A DNA stretch of 32,000 nucleotides, taken from contig SFFE01000011.1 of NCBI GenBank assembly GCA_004556965.1, positions 6,394 to 38,393 of the forward strand, written 5' to 3'. Every line of letters starts with the position of its first letter. Positions within the stretch are counted from its first letter, which is position 1. The DNA comes from Clostridiales bacterium (lineage in GTDB: Bacteria > Bacillota > Clostridia > Oscillospirales > Oscillospiraceae). This document shows positions 8,330 to 29,880 of the stretch, one piece after another. The position numbers and the translations under genes are program-made. Under the pieces are notes generated by a model, which saw only the letters and a program-made list of their open reading frames with translations, was not told the origin of the DNA and did not search any database.

Positions 8330-8473
8330 GCCTTATCAAGAGTGGCGGAGGGACCGGCCCTGTGAAGCCCGGCAACCTGCATTTGCAAGGTGCCAAATCC
8401 GGCGGTGTAAATCGAAAGATGAGGGAATCACGACTTTCCATGCGCTCCGCCGGGACGGCGGGGCGCATTTTTT
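8330..8473 (+). promoter_or_regulatory. SAM-I (S-box) riboswitch with intrinsic terminator
   Basis: CTTATCAAGAGTGGCGGAGGGACCGGCCCTGTGAAGCCCGGCAACC...AAGGTGCCAAATCC...AAAGATGAGGG matches the S-box core. An 11-bp terminator stem at 8442-8466 is followed by T6. Confidence 0.93.
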
Positions 8474-16581: not shown

Positions 16582-16872
16582 CTATTTTGCTGCAAGCGCG
16601 CGGTCCAGCCAGACTGCCGCCACGTCCATGGCGCTGTACAGTCCGTCCTTTTCTGTCTTTTTAACCACGCGGTCGCGCGATTTGAGATCCGGGTCCGTCA
16701 GCTGCAGCTGCACGGATACCCGTGTCGCCACGTCCATGTCCTTGACCTTTTTCGTGTCAAGGATCTGGAGCATGATGATATACTTGTCAGCCATGCTGCC
16801 GAAGTAAATGAGATTGTCTTTTCTTCTGAGCGGATGGCCTTTGTACTCCAGCTCGGTGGATTTTGCTGCCAA
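16582..16872 (-). CDS. Hypothetical 96-aa protein co-transcribed with the NlpC/P60 hydrolase
   Basis: GGAGG lies 7 nt before TTG 16872. The track's GTG 16881 sits inside the SD. The gap to the next gene is 14 nt. I recognise no family. Confidence 0.6.
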   Translation of the reverse strand: MAAKSTELEYKGHPLRRKDNLIYFGSMADKYIIMLQILDTKKVKDMDVATRVSVQLQLTDPDLKSRDRVVKKTEKDGLYSAMDVAAVWLDRALAAK

Positions 16873-16903
16873 ATGAAACACCTCCGATTGTTGCTGTTAC
16901 CGA

Positions 16904-16932
16904 ATTGTAACACATTCTAAGAAATCTGTCAA
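16904..16932 (-). promoter_or_regulatory. Promoter for the 96-aa gene / NlpC-P60 operon
   Basis: Minus strand reads TTGACA (16932-16927), 17 nt spacer, TG-t-TACAAT (16909-16904). Confidence 0.7.
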
Positions 16933-17047
16933 CACGTCAGAAGACGATCGCTCCATTCCGCTTTCGCCACAAGGCGACGGAAGCTGCATATTCGCTCCCG
17001 CCTTCTTCCTTTTCGCGCCGCAACCCATCGTAGCGGTTGCGGCGCGA
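16933..17047. repeat. Copy A of a dispersed structured intergenic element of about 115 nt
   Basis: About 70% identical to the reverse complement of 26118-26230. It shares the 11-mer GCTCCATTCCG with 29638-29648. It has two hairpins whose stems covary between copies. Confidence 0.6.
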
Positions 17048-17125
17048 GGAGCGCCGCCTGCGGGCGGCGAAGCCTACGGCCGGGAAATGTGGGGAATGCT
17101 GGGAACGCGGTGCGATACGCACCAA

Positions 17126-17151
17126 AGCCTTCCCCTCTCAAGGGGAAGGCT
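17126..17151 (-). terminator. Hairpin directly after the PBP gene stop
   Basis: 11-bp stem AGCCTTCCCCT/AGGGGAAGGCT with a 4-nt loop. The U-tract is weak. Confidence 0.5.
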
Positions 17152-17154
17152 CTG

Positions 17155-19287
17155 CTACTGAAGCAGTCCCTCCAGCGCCTGCTGGACGGCGGTGAGCGGG
17201 TCGGTCGCCGCGTCCGGCGTCTGGGACTCATCCGGGGTCTCGTCCTCCGGCTCCTCCTCTTCCGGCTCGGACATGTCGCCGAAAATGCCGGTGGGCGCGC
17301 CGATGGTCGGCGTCGGGAAGGCCTTGTATTCCAGCCCCTCGTGGATCGGCGCCATGATGAGCTTCCAGATCTGCGCCGCGGGGTTGCCGGAGAAGTTCAT
17401 ATACTCCGGCGTGTCGTACCCGGTCCAGACCGCCGCGACGTAGTACGGCGTGTAGCCGACGAAATAGCGGTCGCGGTTGGCGGTCGTCGTACCGGTCTTG
17501 CCGGCGACAGGCATATTGCTCAAGCGCGCCTCGGTGCCGGTACCGGCGTTGACGGCGTTATAGAGCATGTCAGTCATGTTCCACGCGGTGTTTGCCTTGA
17601 AGGCGACGATGGTGCGCGCCGGGTTTTCCAGCACGACGTTGCCCGCGGAATCCGTAATATAGTTGTACGTGCGGGAGTAGGTGAAGATGCCGTCGTTGAC
17701 GAAAGCGCTGTACGCCTGCGCCATCTCGCGCACGGTGATGCCGTTCGTGAGCTGGCCGAGGGCGAGCGGGGCATAGTCGCAGTCCGCGTCGATCATACTC
17801 GTGACGCCGAGCTTGGTCTTCAGGAATTCAAACGACGCGCGCGGCGTGAGTTTATCGAGGATCTGTGCCGATACGGTGTTCAGCGAGCGCTGCAGACCCT
17901 CGCGGATGGTGATGACGCCGTAGTTGCCGCCGCCGGAGTTGCTCGGGTACCAGGTCGTGCCGGAGAGCTTGATGTCCCGGCTGTCGTTTACCTGCGTGTA
18001 CTGCGTGATCAGCCCCAGCTCCATGGCCGGACCGTAGACGGCGATCGGCTTGAAGGACGATCCGGGCGGGCGCTTGGCCTGCGTGGCGCGGTTCAGACCA
18101 AAGTTGATGGTCTTTTCGCCCGTGCCGCCGGAGAGACCCTTGATCTCGCCCGTATACGGGTCGAGGATGACGATGGCGGACTGGAACTGCTGCCCCTTGG
18201 CAGACGGGTGCTGCGGCAGATTATCCAGATTCGTATAGTATTCGTCGATCACGCTCTGGATACTCGCGTCGTAGCAGGAGTAGATCTGATAGCCGCCGGA
18301 ATACAGCAGGGTCTTCGCCGTGTCGTAGCTGACGCCCTTCTGCTCCATGAGATCCTGCAGCACGTCCTCAATGACGGTCTCGGCATAGTAGCTGTAGATC
18401 GTCTGGTTGCCGCCGCTGCTCTCGCTGTGGACGAAGACCAGCTCCTCGGCGACGGCCTCGTCATACTGCTCCTTGGTGATGTAGCCCTGATCGTACATCT
18501 CCCAGAGGATCGTTTCCTGCCGCGCCTTGTTGTTGTCGCGGCTGATGAACGGGTCGTACTTGGAGGGGTTGTTCGTGATGCCGATGATGCTAGCACACTC
18601 CGCGAGCGACAGCTCCGACGGCGTTTTGCCGAAATACGTCTCCGCCGCGGTGTAGATGCCGTTGCAGCCCTCGCCGAAGTACACGACGTTCAGATACCAT
18701 TCGATGATTTCTTCTTTGTCATACGACTTTTCGAATTCGAGCGCCTGGAAGATCTCCAGCAGCTTGCGCTGGACGGTGATATCGTCCTGCTTCGTGAGGT
18801 TCTTGATGAGCTGCTGCGTGATGGTGGAGCCGCCGAAGTCGTTGCGCATGGACAGGAACATGTTCACGAACGCGCCGGTGGTGCGGTACCAGTCCACGCC
18901 TTTGTGCCGGTAAAAGCGCTGGTCCTCAATGGCGACGGCGGCGTGCTCCATGTCCTTCGGGATGTCCTCGTAATCGACCCAGATGCGGTTTTCCGTGCCG
19001 GAGAGGGTCACGAGCTTCTGCCAGTTGCCGTCCGCATCCTGATACAGGATGGAGCTGGACAGCGACAGCGTGAAGTCCTCCAGCTCAACGTCCAGCTCGG
19101 TGGACAGGCAGTTTTTCACGTAATACGCGAAGATGCACATGAAAAGCAGCCCCGTGACCAGCAGAATGAGCAGGATGGTGCCGATGACCCGAAAAACGGT
19201 GCCGACGACGCTGGCGGTCGCTTCCGCGGTACCGTCGGCGAGCTTCTTCGCCGAGCGCCTGGCGTGCTTGTTCCGCTTATCAGCCAT
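17155..19287 (-). CDS. ponA: Class A penicillin-binding protein (glycosyltransferase GT51 + transpeptidase)
   Basis: 710 aa. N-terminal TM anchor, EDQRFYRHKGVD (GT51), SSFKP, SLN, KTGTT. Acidic Pro/Glu-rich C-terminal tail. GGAGGTGA lies upstream of the ATG. Confidence 0.95.
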   Translation of the reverse strand: MADKRNKHARRSAKKLADGTAEATASVVGTVFRVIGTILLILLVTGLLFMCIFAYYVKNCLSTELDVELEDFTLSLSSSILYQDADGNWQKLVTLSGTENRIWVDYEDIPKDMEHAAVAIEDQRFYRHKGVDWYRTTGAFVNMFLSMRNDFGGSTITQQLIKNLTKQDDITVQRKLLEIFQALEFEKSYDKEEIIEWYLNVVYFGEGCNGIYTAAETYFGKTPSELSLAECASIIGITNNPSKYDPFISRDNNKARQETILWEMYDQGYITKEQYDEAVAEELVFVHSESSGGNQTIYSYYAETVIEDVLQDLMEQKGVSYDTAKTLLYSGGYQIYSCYDASIQSVIDEYYTNLDNLPQHPSAKGQQFQSAIVILDPYTGEIKGLSGGTGEKTINFGLNRATQAKRPPGSSFKPIAVYGPAMELGLITQYTQVNDSRDIKLSGTTWYPSNSGGGNYGVITIREGLQRSLNTVSAQILDKLTPRASFEFLKTKLGVTSMIDADCDYAPLALGQLTNGITVREMAQAYSAFVNDGIFTYSRTYNYITDSAGNVVLENPARTIVAFKANTAWNMTDMLYNAVNAGTGTEARLSNMPVAGKTGTTTANRDRYFVGYTPYYVAAVWTGYDTPEYMNFSGNPAAQIWKLIMAPIHEGLEYKAFPTPTIGAPTGIFGDMSEPEEEEPEDETPDESQTPDAATDPLTAVQQALEGLLQ

Positions 19288-20140: not shown

Positions 20141-20411
20141 GTTCCCGGCTTTTCGCATAGGGATGCAGTAAATCCTGCGGTGTGCGTGGAGCATAGTGGT
20201 TGCTCGGAGCCTATTTAAACCCACATCTCTCATAAGGGATGCCGGAACTCCCGCTGCGGATTGCAGGCCTCCCGGAGCGGCTTTGCGCCGCTTTGGACGT
20301 TGGAAGCAGCGAAACAGCGGGGAGGCGACCCACCTGCATTCTGTGCAGGTTGTAATTGGGCTCACACGGCATCGCGGGACGGCCGGCAGCGGATATCGCT
20401 GCCGGCTTTTT
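20141..20411 (+). ncRNA. Unassigned structured RNA region (a long 3' UTR or an independent ncRNA) ending in a strong terminator
   Basis: No credible ORF. A long closing helix can form between 20174-20191 and 20361-20378. Internal helices include 20248-20256/20315-20324, 20274-20293 and 20332-20350. Confidence 0.35.
20382..20411 (+). terminator. Intrinsic terminator
   Basis: GCCGGCAGCG-GATA-TCGCTGCCGGC followed by TTTTT. Confidence 0.8.
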
Positions 20412-26000: not shown

Positions 26001-26085
26001 TGGTGGGGGAAGATGGATTCGAACCATCGAAGGCATTGCCAGCAGATTTACAGTCTGTCCCCTTTGGCCACTCGGGAATTCCCCC
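26001..26085 (-). tRNA. tRNA-Tyr (anticodon GTA), class II with a long variable arm and encoded CCA
   Basis: GGGGGAATTCCCGAGTGGCCAAAGGGGACAGACTGTAAATCTGCTGGCAATGCCTTCGATGGTTCGAATCCATCTTCCCCCACCA. It is close to canonical bacterial tRNA-Tyr. Confidence 0.95.
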
Positions 26086-26117: not shown

Positions 26118-26230
26118 CTCGCGGCGCGACCCAACGAAGTGGTCGTGACGCGAAAAGGAAGACGGAAGGAGCGGATGTGGAGCTTTCGGCTCCCAGCCGG
26201 AAGCGCAACGCAGCGAGTTTCGTCTGACGT
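26118..26230. repeat. Copy B of the dispersed structured element, inside the 166-nt tRNA-Thr/tRNA-Tyr spacer
   Basis: The + strand aligns to the reverse complement of 16933-17047 (shared GCGAAAAGGAAGA, GGAGCG, TCTGACGTG). Hairpin stems differ by compensatory changes. Confidence 0.6.
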
Positions 26231-26251
26231 GAAGCGCGCCCATTCCGACGC

Positions 26252-26327
26252 TGGAGCTGGTAGACGGACTCGAACCCCCGACCTGCTGATTACAAATCAG
26301 CTGCTCTACCAACTGAGCTATACCAGC
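26252..26327 (-). tRNA. tRNA-Thr (anticodon TGT), encoded CCA
   Basis: GCTGGTATAGCTCAGTTGGTAGAGCAGCTGATTTGTAATCAGCAGGTCGGGGGTTCGAGTCCGTCTACCAGCTCCA. My fold gives one G-G mismatch in the T-stem. Confidence 0.88.
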
Positions 26328-27810: not shown

Positions 27811-29634
27811 ATGAAAAAGACATTCCTCAGCCTTCTGTTGATCTTCAGCCTGCTGCTGACGCTTGCGCCAGGCGCGTTTGCCGCGTCGAACCGGGTGGAG
27901 GTGACCTCCGCCGCGGCGATGGCGGAGCAGCTTGCGCAGCCTGCAGCAGTGCCGCAGCGCAGCCGCGCGAGAAGCGCCGCGCCGACGCAGACGGAGCATG
28001 CCGCGCGCGTGCTGCTCTTTGCCGACGCGCTGCCCGACGACTGCGGCGCGCAGCGCGTGCTGCACTACGCGGCGTGGCGCGAGTTCGTGCTCGAATTCGC
28101 CTCGGAGCTTGCGGCGCGCGGTGCATATGAGACGCTCACCGAAACATATGGTATCACCGACTGCTGGCTGGACACGGCGCTCGACGGCGCGGAGGTTTTT
28201 GCGGACACCGACGCCTGCACCTCCTGGGGCGGCGCGGTGATGGGGCTGGACACGCTGAAGTCGCAGGCCGGGCGCTACGTGCCGGAGAGCCGCCGCATCA
28301 CGGTCGCGGTGATCGACACCGGCGCGGATCTGACCATCCCGGCGCTTCAGGCGCGGACGGTTTCGCCGTCCAGCTATGACTTCGTGGACGGCACGTCCGC
28401 CGTCACGGACATCACGACCGGCAGCTCCGCCGGCCACGGCACCAAGGTGGCGAGCCTGCTTGCCGACCTGACGCCGGAGAACGTGGAGCTGATGATTCTG
28501 CGCGTGTTCAGCGAGGAGACGGGCAAGGCGCAGAGCACCACGGTGCTCACGGCACTGCAGTACGCGCTGGAGGCGGGTGCGGACGTCGTCAACCTGAGTC
28601 TCGGCTGGACGAACGCGGACGTCAATCCGGAAAAATACACATTTCTGAATACGGTGCTGGACAAAGCTTACAGCACGGGCGTGCCGGTGATCTGCGCGGC
28701 GGGCAACAACAAGGTCGATGTGCGAACCGTCTACCCCGCGAACTACAGCACGACCATCGCGGTTTCGGCGTTTGACCAGAGCGGAACGTTTGCCGACTCG
28801 TACTCCAACTACGGGCCGGACATCGATTTCTCCGCGCCGGGTACGGCCGTTCAGACCGCCGCGCCCGGCGGCGGCACCGCCACGACAAGCGGCACCTCGC
28901 TCGCCGCGCCGCACATCACGGCGGCCGCGGCGGCCATCCTGCTGGCCGAGCCGGATGCCTCGGCTTCGCAGGTGTATCAGACGCTGCGGACTTATTCCAG
29001 AGATCTCGGCATTACGGGCAAGGACAATCTCTACGGCTGGGGCTGCCCGGTGATGACGGACTATTTCCACAACGTGCTGTGCCCGGCGCTGGCGTTCTCG
29101 GATATGCCGGCGTTTACCGAGTGGTCGCACGCGGGCATTGACTATTGCCTGGAGCACGATCTGCTGCAGGGACTGCCGGGCGCGATTCTGGACCCCGGCG
29201 GCACGACGACGCGCGCGCAGTTTGTCACGATGCTCTGGCGGCTGGCGGGCGAGCCGGAGCCGCACCGTGCGGCGGGCTTCACCGATCTGACGCAGGACTG
29301 GTACCGCGCCGCGGTCGCGTGGGCGGTGGAAACCGGCGTGACGAACGGCATGTCGGAGACGGCGTTCAACCCGGGCGGCGCGGTCACGCGCGAGCAGATG
29401 GCGGCGTTCCTGTACCGCTATGTGCACGTCGCATCGGCGGCGGACGAAACGGTGCTGGAGCAGTTCCCGGATGCGGCGGAGGTCTTCGCCTACGCGCGCC
29501 CGGCGCTCGCGTGGGCGTGCACGGAGGGGCTGATTCAGGGCGTCGGCTCGGATGCGGGCGTTTATCTGCAGCCGAAGGGCAGCGCCACGCGCGCGCAGGT
29601 CGCAACGCTGCTGATGCGCTTTGCTCAGAAATAG
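27811..29634 (+). CDS. SLH-anchored subtilisin-like (S8) serine protease
   Basis: 607 aa. Signal peptide ...LAPGAFA. Catalytic triad motifs VAVIDTGAD, GHGTKVASL and SGTSLAAPHI. Three C-terminal SLH motifs. AAGGAG lies 6 nt before the ATG. Confidence 0.92.
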   Translation: MKKTFLSLLLIFSLLLTLAPGAFAASNRVEVTSAAAMAEQLAQPAAVPQRSRARSAAPTQTEHAARVLLFADALPDDCGAQRVLHYAAWREFVLEFASELAARGAYETLTETYGITDCWLDTALDGAEVFADTDACTSWGGAVMGLDTLKSQAGRYVPESRRITVAVIDTGADLTIPALQARTVSPSSYDFVDGTSAVTDITTGSSAGHGTKVASLLADLTPENVELMILRVFSEETGKAQSTTVLTALQYALEAGADVVNLSLGWTNADVNPEKYTFLNTVLDKAYSTGVPVICAAGNNKVDVRTVYPANYSTTIAVSAFDQSGTFADSYSNYGPDIDFSAPGTAVQTAAPGGGTATTSGTSLAAPHITAAAAAILLAEPDASASQVYQTLRTYSRDLGITGKDNLYGWGCPVMTDYFHNVLCPALAFSDMPAFTEWSHAGIDYCLEHDLLQGLPGAILDPGGTTTRAQFVTMLWRLAGEPEPHRAAGFTDLTQDWYRAAVAWAVETGVTNGMSETAFNPGGAVTREQMAAFLYRYVHVASAADETVLEQFPDAAEVFAYARPALAWACTEGLIQGVGSDAGVYLQPKGSATRAQVATLLMRFAQK

Positions 29635-29745
29635 CTTGCTCCATTCCGGTTCCGGCCAAGGCCGAAACCTCCATATGGTCCAGACCACGCTCTCTTGCCG
29701 CTGCGCGGCAATTCACCTTGTCCGCGCCTTCGATTCTCCTGAACA
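29625..29745. repeat. Copy D (more diverged) of the dispersed element, in the 3' UTR of the S8 protease gene
   Basis: GCTCCATTCCG (29638-29648), hairpin TTCCGGCC-AA-GGCCGAA, then CTCCATAT. A second hairpin GCGCGG/CCGCGC lies at 29703-29727. Boundaries are approximate. Confidence 0.4.
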
Positions 29746-29768
29746 AAACCGAAACGTGTTTCGGTTTT
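29745..29768 (+). terminator. Terminator of the S8 protease transcript
   Basis: AAAACCGAAAC-GT-GTTTCGGTTTT. Confidence 0.6.
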
Positions 29769-29880
29769 GAAAGGACGAGCAGCGGAATGAATGCGCTTTC
29801 CCGCTTGTCGGGGAAGCAAATGATAGGGAGCTTGTGAGGACGTGCGGCATTGATTTTGAGAAAAGGACGGTGACAATCCG

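What the first reader, a model, noticed from the sequence alone, without database searches (positions are those of the whole stretch)
16933..17151. Copy A of a dispersed, apparently structured intergenic element, embedded in a run of five hairpins between the PBP gene and the next promoter
Region 16933-17047 aligns at roughly 70% identity to the reverse complement of 26118-26230. Shared blocks are CACGTCAGA, CGCTCC..CCTTCTTCCTTTTCGCG and CGCGAG. It also aligns partially to 29625-29745, including the exact 11-mer GCTCCATTCCG. Two hairpins are preserved by structure rather than sequence. Hairpin 1 is CCGCAACC/GGTTGCGG here and GCGCGACC/GGTCGTGA-type in copy B. An A-T pair becomes G-C, which is a double compensatory change. 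Hairpin 2 is TCGCC-ACAA-GGCGA here, CGGCT-GGG-AGCCG in B and TTCCGGCC-AA-GGCCGAA in D. Conserved single-stranded flanks with covarying stems suggest a functional RNA or a recognition structure rather than a plain terminator. In one orientation the linker is a C/U-rich tract (CUCCCGCCUUCUUCCUUUUCG). That resembles the anti-SD seed regions of Firmicute regulatory sRNAs. In the other orientation it is purine-rich followed by AUG. Two more hairpins (17052-17069, 17109-17123) and the PBP terminator follow.
Basis: partly seen in the sequence, partly recalled or inferred. Interest (0 to 1): 0.6.

Follow-up and report, generated by a model that had tools for sequence, protein, structure and literature searches.

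The report
CGTC-tagged mosaic hairpin repeat family
The stretch between the PBP gene and the next promoter is not a small-RNA gene. It is one array of a previously undescribed, fast-changing family of hairpin DNA repeats, present in over 100 copies in this uncultured gut bacterium, similar in kind to the REP/BIME repeats of E. coli.

Summary
Copy A (16933-17047) matches the reverse complement of copy B at 72-73% identity, and the stems covary.

The element is not a private structured RNA. Its 76-nt core (16935-17013) has at least 97-106 copies in this 2.19 Mb Oscillospiraceae MAG. All five hairpins in 16933-17151 are recurring modules.

Across 72 distinct copies, which are only 68% identical to each other, the core keeps a four-helix imperfect hairpin: 88% of cells pair against about 40% in slid controls, and 22 of 22 pairs show compensatory changes.

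Copy number across 22 congeners runs from 0 to about 100. The element is absent at the orthologous PBP locus in seven congeners. Arrays differ in nearly every intergenic gap from a relative with about 95% identical flanks.

Orientation is random relative to both genes and replication. There is no Rfam hit, and Y1 transposase, TnpB, DUF559 and reverse transcriptase do not track copy number.

The unpaired CGTC end lies flush against stop codons, tRNA CCA ends, an RBS or a -35 box.

My best reading is a selfish REP/BIME/NIME-like mosaic repeat, closest to the "CGTC-tagged REPs" but much larger and not reported in Firmicutes. The scan has noted analogous mosaic families in other gut Clostridia. 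The RNA-seq run finder was closed.

The parts
16935..17013 (+). Core module, copy A. Unpaired tag CGTC (16935-16938), then four helices: P1 16939-16946/16999-17006, P2 16950-16951/16994-16995, P3 16954-16956/16988-16990, and P4 16960-16968/16976-16984 (model pairing). Unpaired tail TCCTTTT. In copy A itself the apical hairpin is TCGCC-ACAA-GGCGA (16964-16968/16973-16977) and two model pairs of P4 do not form.
   Evidence: CM R1 hit of 73.5 bits, E = 1.5e-18. Structure counted on 72 copies.
17014..17046 (+). Alpha hairpin module (CGCGCCGCAACC-CATCGTAGC-GGTTGCGGCGCG). Core plus alpha is the ancestral roughly 115-nt unit, found across the genus and in other families of the order.
   Evidence: About 19-28 alpha copies in the genome with covarying stems. 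The loop is inverted in the orthologous G016 copy.
17052..17069 (+). Small GC hairpin module (CGCCGCC-TGCG-GGCGGCG).
   Evidence: The pattern recurs, with about 14 palindromic sites, 11 of 28 strand-hits intergenic. It also follows core plus alpha at C53:25152.
17109..17123 (+). Delta hairpin module (GGTGCG-ATA-CGCACC).
   Evidence: About 12 sites genome-wide. It recurs after beta hairpins in many arrays.
17127..17150 (.). Epsilon hairpin module (GCCTTCCCC-TCTCAA-GGGGAAGGC), 4 nt from the PBP stop codon (CTA at 17155-17157). It is a likely stand-in for the PBP terminator, which in congeners is a different, unrelated hairpin.
   Evidence: About 15 sites genome-wide, 28 of 30 strand-hits intergenic. 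The simple scan calls no canonical terminator here.
16904..16932 (-). Promoter of the 99-aa gene (TTGACA-17-TGnTACAAT), conserved in all congeners. The CGTC tag starts 2 nt from the -35 hexamer.
17155..19287 (-). Class A PBP gene (transglycosylase plus transpeptidase). The array lies in its 3' flank, with the purine-rich strand of the core in the sense direction.
   Evidence: Pfam PF00912 and PF00905.
26153..26229 (-). Core module, copy B, inside the tRNA-Thr/tRNA-Tyr spacer. The C/U-rich strand is in the tRNA sense direction.
   Evidence: CM hit of 84.1 bits. tRNAs at 26252-26327 and 26001-26085.
26118..26152 (-). Alpha hairpin of copy B (CGCGTCACGACC-ACTTCGTTG-GGTCGCGCCGCG).
26230..26250 (-). 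Truncated 5' fragment of a second core (CGTCGGAATGGGCGCGCTTCA). It starts 1 nt after the encoded CCA end of tRNA-Thr.
   Evidence: Sequence read.
29625..29676 (+). Copy D, left part. The degenerate tag GCTC overlaps the stop codon of the S8/SLH protease gene. The apical two-thirds of a core follow.
   Evidence: CM local hit at 29642-29676, 29.6 bits. Pfam for the gene.
29745..29768 (.). Gamma hairpin (AAAACCGAAAC-GTGT-GTTTCGGTTTT), which resembles a bidirectional terminator. About 31 copies in the genome.
29769..29842 (-). Variant ('X-type') core in inverted orientation (CGTCCTCACAAGCTCC...GCTGCTCGTCCTTTC). With the left part it forms a tail-to-tail composite whose tags face outward.
   Evidence: CM hit of 20.7 bits. 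The same composite architecture occurs at 5 or more other loci.

Best explanation
Region 16933-17151 is one array of a multi-module family of intergenic palindromic repeats. The family is restricted to parts of this genus and, in expanded form, to a few of its species. Its anchor is a 76-nt imperfect hairpin with an unpaired CGTC tag and a TCCTT tail, normally followed by one of three alternative hairpins (alpha, beta or gamma) and optional small hairpins. I read it as selfish, non-autonomous DNA of the REP/BIME/NIME kind. Copies colonise transcribed spacers: between a stop codon and the terminator, between operon genes, and in tRNA and rRNA spacers. The arrays are then rapidly reshuffled by recombination and template switching at their palindromes. 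The hairpin stays intact across very divergent subfamilies because only structurally intact copies are propagated. In other words, the folded single strand is the substrate that an unidentified trans-acting host or mobile enzyme recognises, as in REP/RAYT or IS200/IS605 chemistry. At this locus it is a passenger that replaced the short native PBP terminator spacer. Its hairpins probably now supply termination or insulation between the PBP gene and the next promoter. Shown here: family membership, structure, covariation, patchy distribution, turnover and positional rules. Inferred: mobility through a single-stranded hairpin intermediate, and the local terminator role.
For: Copy number: iterated nhmmer finds 142 hits, 97 of them near-full cores. 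The CM finds at least 106 in G000.

Structure: 87.7% of cells pair, 22 of 22 pairs are compensated, and the covariation score is 0.589 against 0.07-0.15 when slid. Mean pairwise identity among copies is only 68%. An independent set from other MAGs pairs at 86.5% against 33-56%.

Patchy phyletic pattern: copies per congener are 99, 85, 44, 31, 21, 20, 17 ... 2, 1 and 0 (x4). Only scattered low-copy relatives occur in 11 of 120 other genomes of the order.

Empty orthologous site: seven congeners (G001, G010, G011, G013, G003, G018, G014) have a 65-70 nt spacer with a plain hairpin and the same promoter. Two more (G017, G012) hold degenerate remnants.

Turnover: only 2 of 36 cores lie inside long syntenic alignments with G016. 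One of those two has lost its interior by an arm-to-arm deletion. There are clean insertion/absence differences of 250-540 nt. Hairpin loops are flipped between strains.

Mosaic grammar: adjacent cores are tail-to-tail with tags outward (11) or direct (10), and never tags-inward (0). Nested composites share the same junction.

88 of 97 copies are intergenic. The split is 21 convergent, 7 divergent and 43 tandem contexts.

No orientation bias relative to transcription (19:24) or replication (26:16, p = 0.16).

No Rfam family matches at gathering or E <= 10 thresholds.
Against: No mobilising enzyme was found. Y1_Tnp and TnpB are absent from G000. Y1_Tnp, DUF559 and RVT_1 do not follow copy number in the genus. 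G000 has no multi-copy IS.

There are no target-site duplications at 11 dimers.

No strictly clean single-unit insertion against an empty site was recovered between near-identical genomes, so the mobile unit and its ends are not defined.

The strand that folds is not settled. The purine-rich strand folds better in 71 of 72 copies, but the excess of A.C over G.T (139:15) rests mainly on two fixed positions. It vanishes outside the fixed position in a second genome (20:22).

The tight placement at stop codons and CCA ends is not explained by a simple selfish-DNA model.

Confidence: 0.62

Rival explanations
1. Cis-acting RNA element of transcripts. The hairpins act in mRNA 3' UTRs and in tRNA/rRNA precursors as 3'-end stabilisers, terminators, processing signals or translation-coupled roadblocks, in the way proposed for E. 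coli REPs. They are kept by host-level selection.
For: Arrays lie in transcribed spacers, between the stop codon and a native-type terminator that is retained distal to the array (seen at most of the 10 loci inspected), between operon genes, in tRNA operons and in rRNA ITS. 27 of 46 same-strand copies start within -12..+10 nt of the stop codon. The gamma and epsilon modules look like bidirectional terminators. Convergent contexts outnumber divergent ones 3:1.
Against: Both orientations occur equally in co-directional contexts (19:24), yet the two strands fold very differently (-21.7 against -30.6 kcal/mol). Four congeners have none and others have only 1-2. Orthologous copies are not conserved between close relatives. 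No canonical terminator is called in 16800-17250.
Confidence: 0.2
2. Family of trans-acting small RNAs with a C/U-rich anti-SD seed.
For: Conserved C/U-rich unpaired segments (GCTCCATTCC, TCCACATCC, the TCCTT tail) sit between covarying stems.
Against: The element has no promoter of its own; upstream flanks are unrelated. There are more than 100 copies, random in orientation, with rapid gain and loss. Most of the proposed seed is paired. No Rfam family matches.
Confidence: 0.03
3. Binding-site arrays for a host DNA-architecture or repair protein, as BIMEs bind gyrase, IHF and Pol I. They would be spread passively by recombination rather than by transposition.
For: Internal-loop sequences are conserved on both arms. 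Orientation is independent of genes and replication. No transposase was found.
Against: An essential host function is hard to reconcile with 0-2 copies in eight congeners. Colonisation of more than 50 separate spacers needs some insertion process. The compensatory stem changes point to a folded single strand rather than duplex sequence recognition.
Confidence: 0.1
4. Structure-specific recombination sites (like integron attC or Xer/dif), used by a tyrosine recombinase that acts on a folded strand at gene 3' boundaries.
For: The elements are imperfect palindromes of attC-like size, with conserved ends, a variable complementary interior and unpaired bases. They lie immediately after stop codons. 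There are no TSDs.
Against: The outer boxes do not fit RYYYAAC/GTTRRRY; only AGAA/TTCT is conserved. The flanked genes are syntenic housekeeping genes, not cassettes. The elements occur in both orientations. No integron integrase was sought specifically.
Confidence: 0.05

Closest known systems
CGTC-tagged REP superfamily (Di Nocera, De Gregorio & Rocco 2013, PMC3733652), which includes Neisseria dRS3 and Rickettsia RPE-4/-6
   Same: An unpaired CGTC tag (variants TGTC and others) at one end of a palindrome. An 8-bp outer stem that opens with an A-T pair. A short unpaired tail. Intergenic location, mostly downstream of ORFs, sometimes supplying the stop codon. Family sizes of tens to hundreds with large differences between related species. 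No associated transposase gene (for the paper; for this family).
   Different: Published families have 8-9 bp stems closing 4-5 nt loops (about 25-30 nt in total) and a CCA tail. They were reported in Proteobacteria, Chlorobi, Bacteroidetes, Spirochaetes and Thermotogae, not in Firmicutes. Here the outer stem encloses a 52-nt interior with three further covarying helices and conserved internal loops, the tail is TCC(TT), and the unit is bound to a second hairpin module. No sequence homology was tested or is claimed.
BIMEs of Enterobacteria and NIMEs of Neisseria (mosaic intergenic arrays built from REP/dRS3 plus other motifs)
   Same: Several motif types combine in variable order to fill whole intergenic gaps. 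Array content differs between close relatives. There is a preference for 3' ends of genes and convergent gaps.
   Different: The sequences and module set are unrelated. The core is much longer and multi-helical. The host is an uncultured Oscillospiraceae.
REPIN/RAYT systems (Nunvar 2010, PMC2817692; Bertels & Rainey 2011)
   Same: Inverted doublets can form one long hairpin (here 11 tail-to-tail dimers of 138-278 nt). Stem evolution is compensatory. Lineage-specific bursts occur.
   Different: No GTAG tag. No RAYT/Y1 transposase in the three richest genomes. Y1 genes occur in low-copy congeners instead.
BOX elements of Streptococcus pneumoniae (boxA-boxB(n)-boxC)
   Same: A modular composite repeat in a Firmicute that folds stably, is intergenic, and has no coding capacity and no known transposase.
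   Different: No sequence similarity (no Rfam or BLAST relation seen). Different module logic: here one anchor core plus alternative hairpins.

Membership tests
CGTC-tagged REPs (PMC3733652) | Unpaired CGTC (or TGTC/CCTC) tetranucleotide at one end of the palindrome | tested here: met
   Columns 1-4 (C, G, T, C) are invariant or at least 90% conserved in 72 copies and lie outside helix P1.
CGTC-tagged REPs (PMC3733652) | Stem of 8-9 bp with complementary A-T residues in the first and second positions | tested here: inconclusive
   Outer helix P1 has 8 pairs. Pair 1 is A-U in 58 of 72 copies, but pair 2 is G-C in 58 of 72; pairs 3 and 4 are A-U.
CGTC-tagged REPs (PMC3733652) | Loop of 4-5 nt, giving a whole element of about 25-30 nt | tested here: not met
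   P1 encloses 52 nt that hold three more helices.
CGTC-tagged REPs (PMC3733652) | 3-nt unpaired tail fitting CCA | tested here: not met
   The tail is TCC(TT). CCA is instead found upstream of the tag at tRNA genes.
CGTC-tagged REPs (PMC3733652) | No dedicated transposase gene flanked by the repeats | tested here: met
REP/REPIN with RAYT | GTAG tag on 20-40 bp palindromes | tested here: not met
   The tag is CGTC and the core is 76 nt.
REP/REPIN with RAYT | Single-copy Y1 (IS200-like) transposase present and flanked by the repeats | tested here: not met
   PF01797 is absent from G000 and G017 and gives only 21 bits in G016. It is present in low-copy G013.
MITE | Terminal inverted repeats plus target-site duplication plus a related autonomous IS | tested here: not met
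   Tail-to-tail dimers do have inverted cores at both ends, but there is no TSD at 11 dimers, and G000 contains no multi-copy IS.
IS200/IS605-derived elements (PATE) or omega-RNA remnants | TnpA(Y1) and/or TnpB encoded in the genome | tested here: not met
   PF01797 and PF07282 have no match in G000.
BIME/NIME/BOX-type mosaic repeats (a kind, not a homologous family) | Several distinct short motifs combined in variable order in intergenic arrays | tested here: met
   Core plus alpha/beta/gamma plus delta, epsilon and other modules. Arrays differ between G000 and G016.
Any Rfam RNA family | Covariance-model match | tested here: not met
   Nothing at the gathering threshold in the window. In 16880-17170 only chance-level hits, the best being 24.6 bits against a gathering score of 71.
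Integron attC sites | R''/R' boxes RYYYAAC/GTTRRRY and an integron integrase | tested here: inconclusive
   The boxes do not fit; only AGAA/TTCT is conserved and AAC/GTT occurs in one subfamily only. An integrase was not searched for.

The most novel reading that the evidence does not exclude
The core-plus-alpha unit is an order-wide element whose CGTC end is joined base-exactly to the 3' boundary of gene products. It follows directly after the encoded CCA of three different tRNAs in three genomes, and it sits at the stop codon, give or take 3 codons, of dozens of ORFs. This would be because it is inserted by an undescribed, transposase-less mechanism that targets 3' ends of genes, for example one coupled to RNA 3' ends, to translation termination, or to a housekeeping structure-specific recombinase. 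It would then be a new class of site-selective mobile hairpin rather than an ordinary REP-like repeat.
Probability: 0.1. Interest if true: 0.8.

Novelty: new variant of a known kind. Interest (0 to 1): 0.47.

Why it matters
It extends the poorly understood, transposase-less "CGTC-tagged" class of bacterial palindromic repeats to Firmicutes and to a much larger, four-helix architecture. It also gives that class an unusually informative data set. Very divergent subfamilies all keep the fold. Congeners range from 0 to about 100 copies. There are sharp positional rules: tags always face outward and sit flush with stop codons, tRNA CCA ends, an RBS or a -35 box. These rules make the open question of how CGTC repeats are made and moved testable.

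In practice, these arrays break MAG assemblies, since many contigs end in them. They replace native terminators, separate translationally coupled genes, and are easily mistaken for sRNA genes or riboswitch-like leaders in gut Clostridia.

Tried and rejected
1. **Known RNA family.** Rfam at gathering and E <= 10 thresholds found nothing.
2. **RAYT/IS200 or TnpB partner.** Absent from G000, and not correlated with copy number in the genus.
3. **DUF559 nuclease partner** (a lead from earlier scan notes). It is present in zero-copy congeners and absent from G017, which has 85 copies.
4. **Retro-mobility.** RVT_1 is in G000 but also three times in zero-copy G010, and it is absent from G016 and G017.
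5. **Genes bracketed by cores as candidate enzymes.** By their N-terminal sequences the 16 bracketed ORFs look like ordinary housekeeping or prophage genes; they were not run against Pfam.
6. **Replication-polar orientation.** 26:16, not significant.
7. **Small ORF on the purine-rich strand.** The ATG frame differs between subfamilies, so this was rejected from the alignment.
8. **Same family as the GAGCGGCT repeats of the tRNA-Thr island in this genome.** No. That word is concentrated on contig C20, which has no core copy.
9. **Phage or plasmid carriage.** No BLAST match in the phage or plasmid collections. There was one exact-pattern hit at the edge of an IMG/VR contig.
10. **In-situ constraint test on orthologous G000/G016 copies.** It could not be done, because only 2 of 36 cores are alignable as orthologues.
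11. **Short-module counting with nhmmer.** It failed and was replaced by pattern counts.
13. **Literature searches.** Oscillospiraceae intergenic repeats and REPIN/RAYT in Firmicutes returned nothing.

Full report
**Observation.** The window is G000:C37:6394-38393 of a 2.19 Mb, 54-contig, 59% G+C genome. Earlier notes of this scan call it a gut Oscillospiraceae genome, and the relatives that carry the family are uncultured Oscillospiraceae/Ruminococcaceae MAGs. Copy A (16933-17047) aligns to the reverse complement of copy B (26118-26230) with 84 identical positions in 117 columns. BLASTN gives 73.5% over 117 nt, E = 7e-11. Copy B lies between tRNA-Thr and tRNA-Tyr. Copy A lies between a class A PBP gene and the promoter TTGACA-17-TACAAT of a 99-aa gene.

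**It is a large repeat family.** Iterated nhmmer starting from copy A converges on 142 hits, of which 97 are near-complete 76-nt cores. Many lie at contig ends. Nearly every core is followed by one of three alternative hairpins:
- alpha, with conserved apex CCACTTCGTTGGG;
- beta, CAGCCGCAAGTCAAGCTTGCG;
- gamma, CCGAAAC-N4-GTTTCGG flanked by A and T runs.

The three further hairpins of 17052-17150 also recur 12-15 times each. So 16933-17151 is a mosaic made entirely of family modules. In the window the model finds A (73.5 bits), B (84.1 bits), the apical part of D (29.6 bits) and an inverted variant core at 29769-29842 (20.7 bits).

**Structure.** The core reads CGTC, then P1 (8 bp), a 3x3 loop, P2 (2 bp), a loop, P3 (2-3 bp), a 3x3 loop, P4 (9 bp, apical loop), and back, ending in TCCTT.
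- On 72 copies that are on average only 68% identical, 87.7% of cells form standard pairs, against 39-44% when the partner is slid.
- All 22 pairs show changes on both sides. There are 341 compensated cells against 98 in shuffles. The covariation score is 0.589 against 0.07-0.15.
- RNAalifold independently recovers P1, P2 and P4.
- Alpha hairpins behave the same way: 91.4% paired, 12 of 15 pairs compensated, including one pair in the conserved apex. Those copies were pre-selected for complementary flanks.
- A second set of 51 copies from other MAGs pairs at 86.5% against 33-56%. That alignment was fitted to the model.

**Which strand folds?** The purine-rich strand is predicted to be more stable in 71 of 72 copies (-30.6 against -21.7 kcal/mol). 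The reason is that A.C oppositions on the C/U-rich strand (139) far exceed G.T (15). However, 99 of the 139 come from two nearly fixed positions and 12 from one subfamily. In the second genome set the excess disappears outside the fixed position (20 against 22). I treat the strand call as unresolved.

**Distribution and dynamics.** In 22 species of the genus the CM counts are: at least 106 (G000), 99, 85, 44, 31, 21, 20, 17, 8, 7, 6, 6, 4, 2, 2, 1, 1, 1 and four zeros. The pattern is patchy relative to sequence relatedness. In 120 other genomes of the order, 11 have 1-7 weaker copies, with the outer stem compensated.

At the orthologous PBP locus, seven congeners have a 65-70 nt spacer with an unrelated plain hairpin and the same promoter. 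G016 (94-97% identical flanks) has copy A plus about 340 nt of extra modules and a second core. G017 and G012 keep only a 12-20 nt remnant (CGTCAGAATGAA...).

Across five repeat-rich contigs compared with G016, nearly every intergenic gap differs in module content. Only 2 of 36 cores lie within long syntenic alignments, and one of those has lost its interior by an arm-to-arm deletion. Hairpin loops are inverted between the two genomes. In RUG10603 many copies are nearly identical, which points to a recent burst. High turnover, intact structure and deep subfamily divergence together argue that selection for the fold acts when copies are made, not on each resident copy.

**Positional rules.**
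- 88 of 97 cores are intergenic. There are 43 tandem, 21 convergent and 7 divergent contexts. In tandem contexts 19 are co-directional and 24 anti-directional.
- There is no bias relative to GC-skew-inferred replication direction (26:16, p = 0.16).
- Neighbouring cores are tail-to-tail with tags outward (11) or direct (10), never tags-inward. No target duplications flank the 11 dimers.
- The tag end abuts functional sequence. 27 of 46 copies that face the 3' end of a same-strand gene start within -12..+10 nt of its stop codon. In the GAATGAA subfamily the element's own TGA terminates the ORF.
- Against empty sites in the complete genome G001 (20 loci), the tag falls on the ancestral stop codon, give or take about 3 codons. 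G000 retains a native-type terminator at the far end of the array, so arrays lie in the transcribed gap between stop codon and terminator, or between operon genes. This sample was chosen for proximity to the present stop codon. The informative figure is therefore the 27 of 46.
- In low-copy congeners, 5 of 7 copies lie just after a tRNA gene. The junction CCA|CGTC is exact at tRNA-Leu (G001), tRNA-Gln (G013) and tRNA-Met (G071, another family). It is CCA plus 3 nt in three more genomes. Copy B has CCA, then G, then a truncated core, then a full core.
- In G120 the copies appear to lie in rRNA operons. In the one operon fetched, cores sit 4 nt from the 23S 5' end and 7 nt from tRNA-Ala. The other five hits have the same scores.
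- Copy A's tag is 2 nt from a -35 box.

**Partner enzyme.** None was found.
- Y1_Tnp and TnpB are absent from G000.
- Y1_Tnp, DUF559 and RVT_1 do not follow copy number.
- Genes bracketed by cores look like housekeeping or prophage genes from their N-terminal sequences; I did not scan them against Pfam.
- G000 has no multi-copy IS.
- There is no match in the phage or plasmid collections.

**Comparison with what is known.** The unpaired CGTC tag, the 8-bp outer stem opening with A-T, the short tail, the location downstream of ORFs, the large differences between relatives and the lack of a transposase all match the CGTC-tagged REP superfamily of Di Nocera et al. (PMC3733652). Those elements, however, have a 4-5 nt loop and a CCA tail, and Firmicutes are not among the phyla in which that paper reports CGTC repeats. 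The mosaic organisation resembles BIMEs, NIMEs and BOX. REPIN/RAYT and MITE membership fails on defining features (see the membership table). I therefore file this as a new variant of the REP/BIME kind, with a working analogy to CGTC REPs but no demonstrated homology. Earlier notes of this scan describe analogous undescribed mosaic hairpin families in other gut and rumen Clostridia. The GAGCGGCT repeats of this genome's tRNA-Thr island are a different family.

**Limits.** No expression data are available. These are draft MAGs. Gene calls come from my own codon-usage caller. Copies are related by descent, so cell counts are not independent events.

Noticed in passing
G001 L114:1498-1504; G013 L113:1498-1504; G071 L014:1498-1504; window 26247-26254: The CGTC tag is joined base-exactly to the encoded CCA end of three different tRNA genes in three genomes (CCA|CGTC). 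In the window it follows 1 nt after the CCA of tRNA-Thr. In low-copy congeners the tRNA-adjacent copies are almost the only ones.
   Followed up: partly
L018 (G120:C4:643884-646953) 1501-1570 and 2024-2092: In a genome of another family of the order, the copies sit in rRNA operon spacers. They are 4 nt upstream of the 23S 5' end and 7 nt upstream of tRNA-Ala, with the purine-rich strand in the sense direction. There are 7 hits, apparently two per operon.
   Followed up: partly
G016 L029 (C19) about 2609-2852, against G000 C49:7198: A core plus beta unit is inserted exactly after the TGA of an ATGA-coupled gene pair. The insertion is followed by a diverged copy, about 30 nt long, of the upstream RBS region. 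That copy restores a Shine-Dalgarno sequence and an ATG for the downstream gene.
   Followed up: partly
window 17026-17034 against G016 L002; G000 C49 about 8650 against G016 L029: The loops of alpha hairpins are reverse-complemented between orthologous copies of two genomes (CATCGTAGC against GCTACGCTG; CCAACGAAGTG against CACTTCGTTGG). The palindromes flip in place.
   Followed up: no
G000 C11:536-721, C28:20708-20902, C29:27347-27542, C33:2832-2986, C50:1053-1167: These are composite elements. The apical half of one core is replaced, always at the same junction (GCGCTC| ... |ATCCGC), by an X-type core, a gamma hairpin and an inverted CGTCCAAACGGA-type core. The outer stems are of different subfamilies. 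This suggests either repeated insertion into the family's own hairpin or recombination.
   Followed up: partly
G000 C39:1-317 and C8:2374-2575: Short tandem runs of the core with a period of about 110-119 nt.
   Followed up: no
L042:201-729 and L054:926-1448 (RUG10603): A different composite repeat of about 530 bp, with 90% identity between loci. It is built of other hairpins, one of them containing GGTTGTTAAGGGGCGG..CCCCTTGACC. This is evidence that several mosaic families coexist in these genomes.
   Followed up: no
window 8330-8425 and 20169-20384: A SAM riboswitch lies upstream of metK (84.7 bits).
   Followed up: no
G000 whole genome: There is no multi-copy IS element in the assembly; the only repeats of 400 bp or more are paralogues. 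A single RVT_1 gene lies at C5:8066-8542 and a single DUF559 gene at C28:15207-15518.
   Followed up: partly
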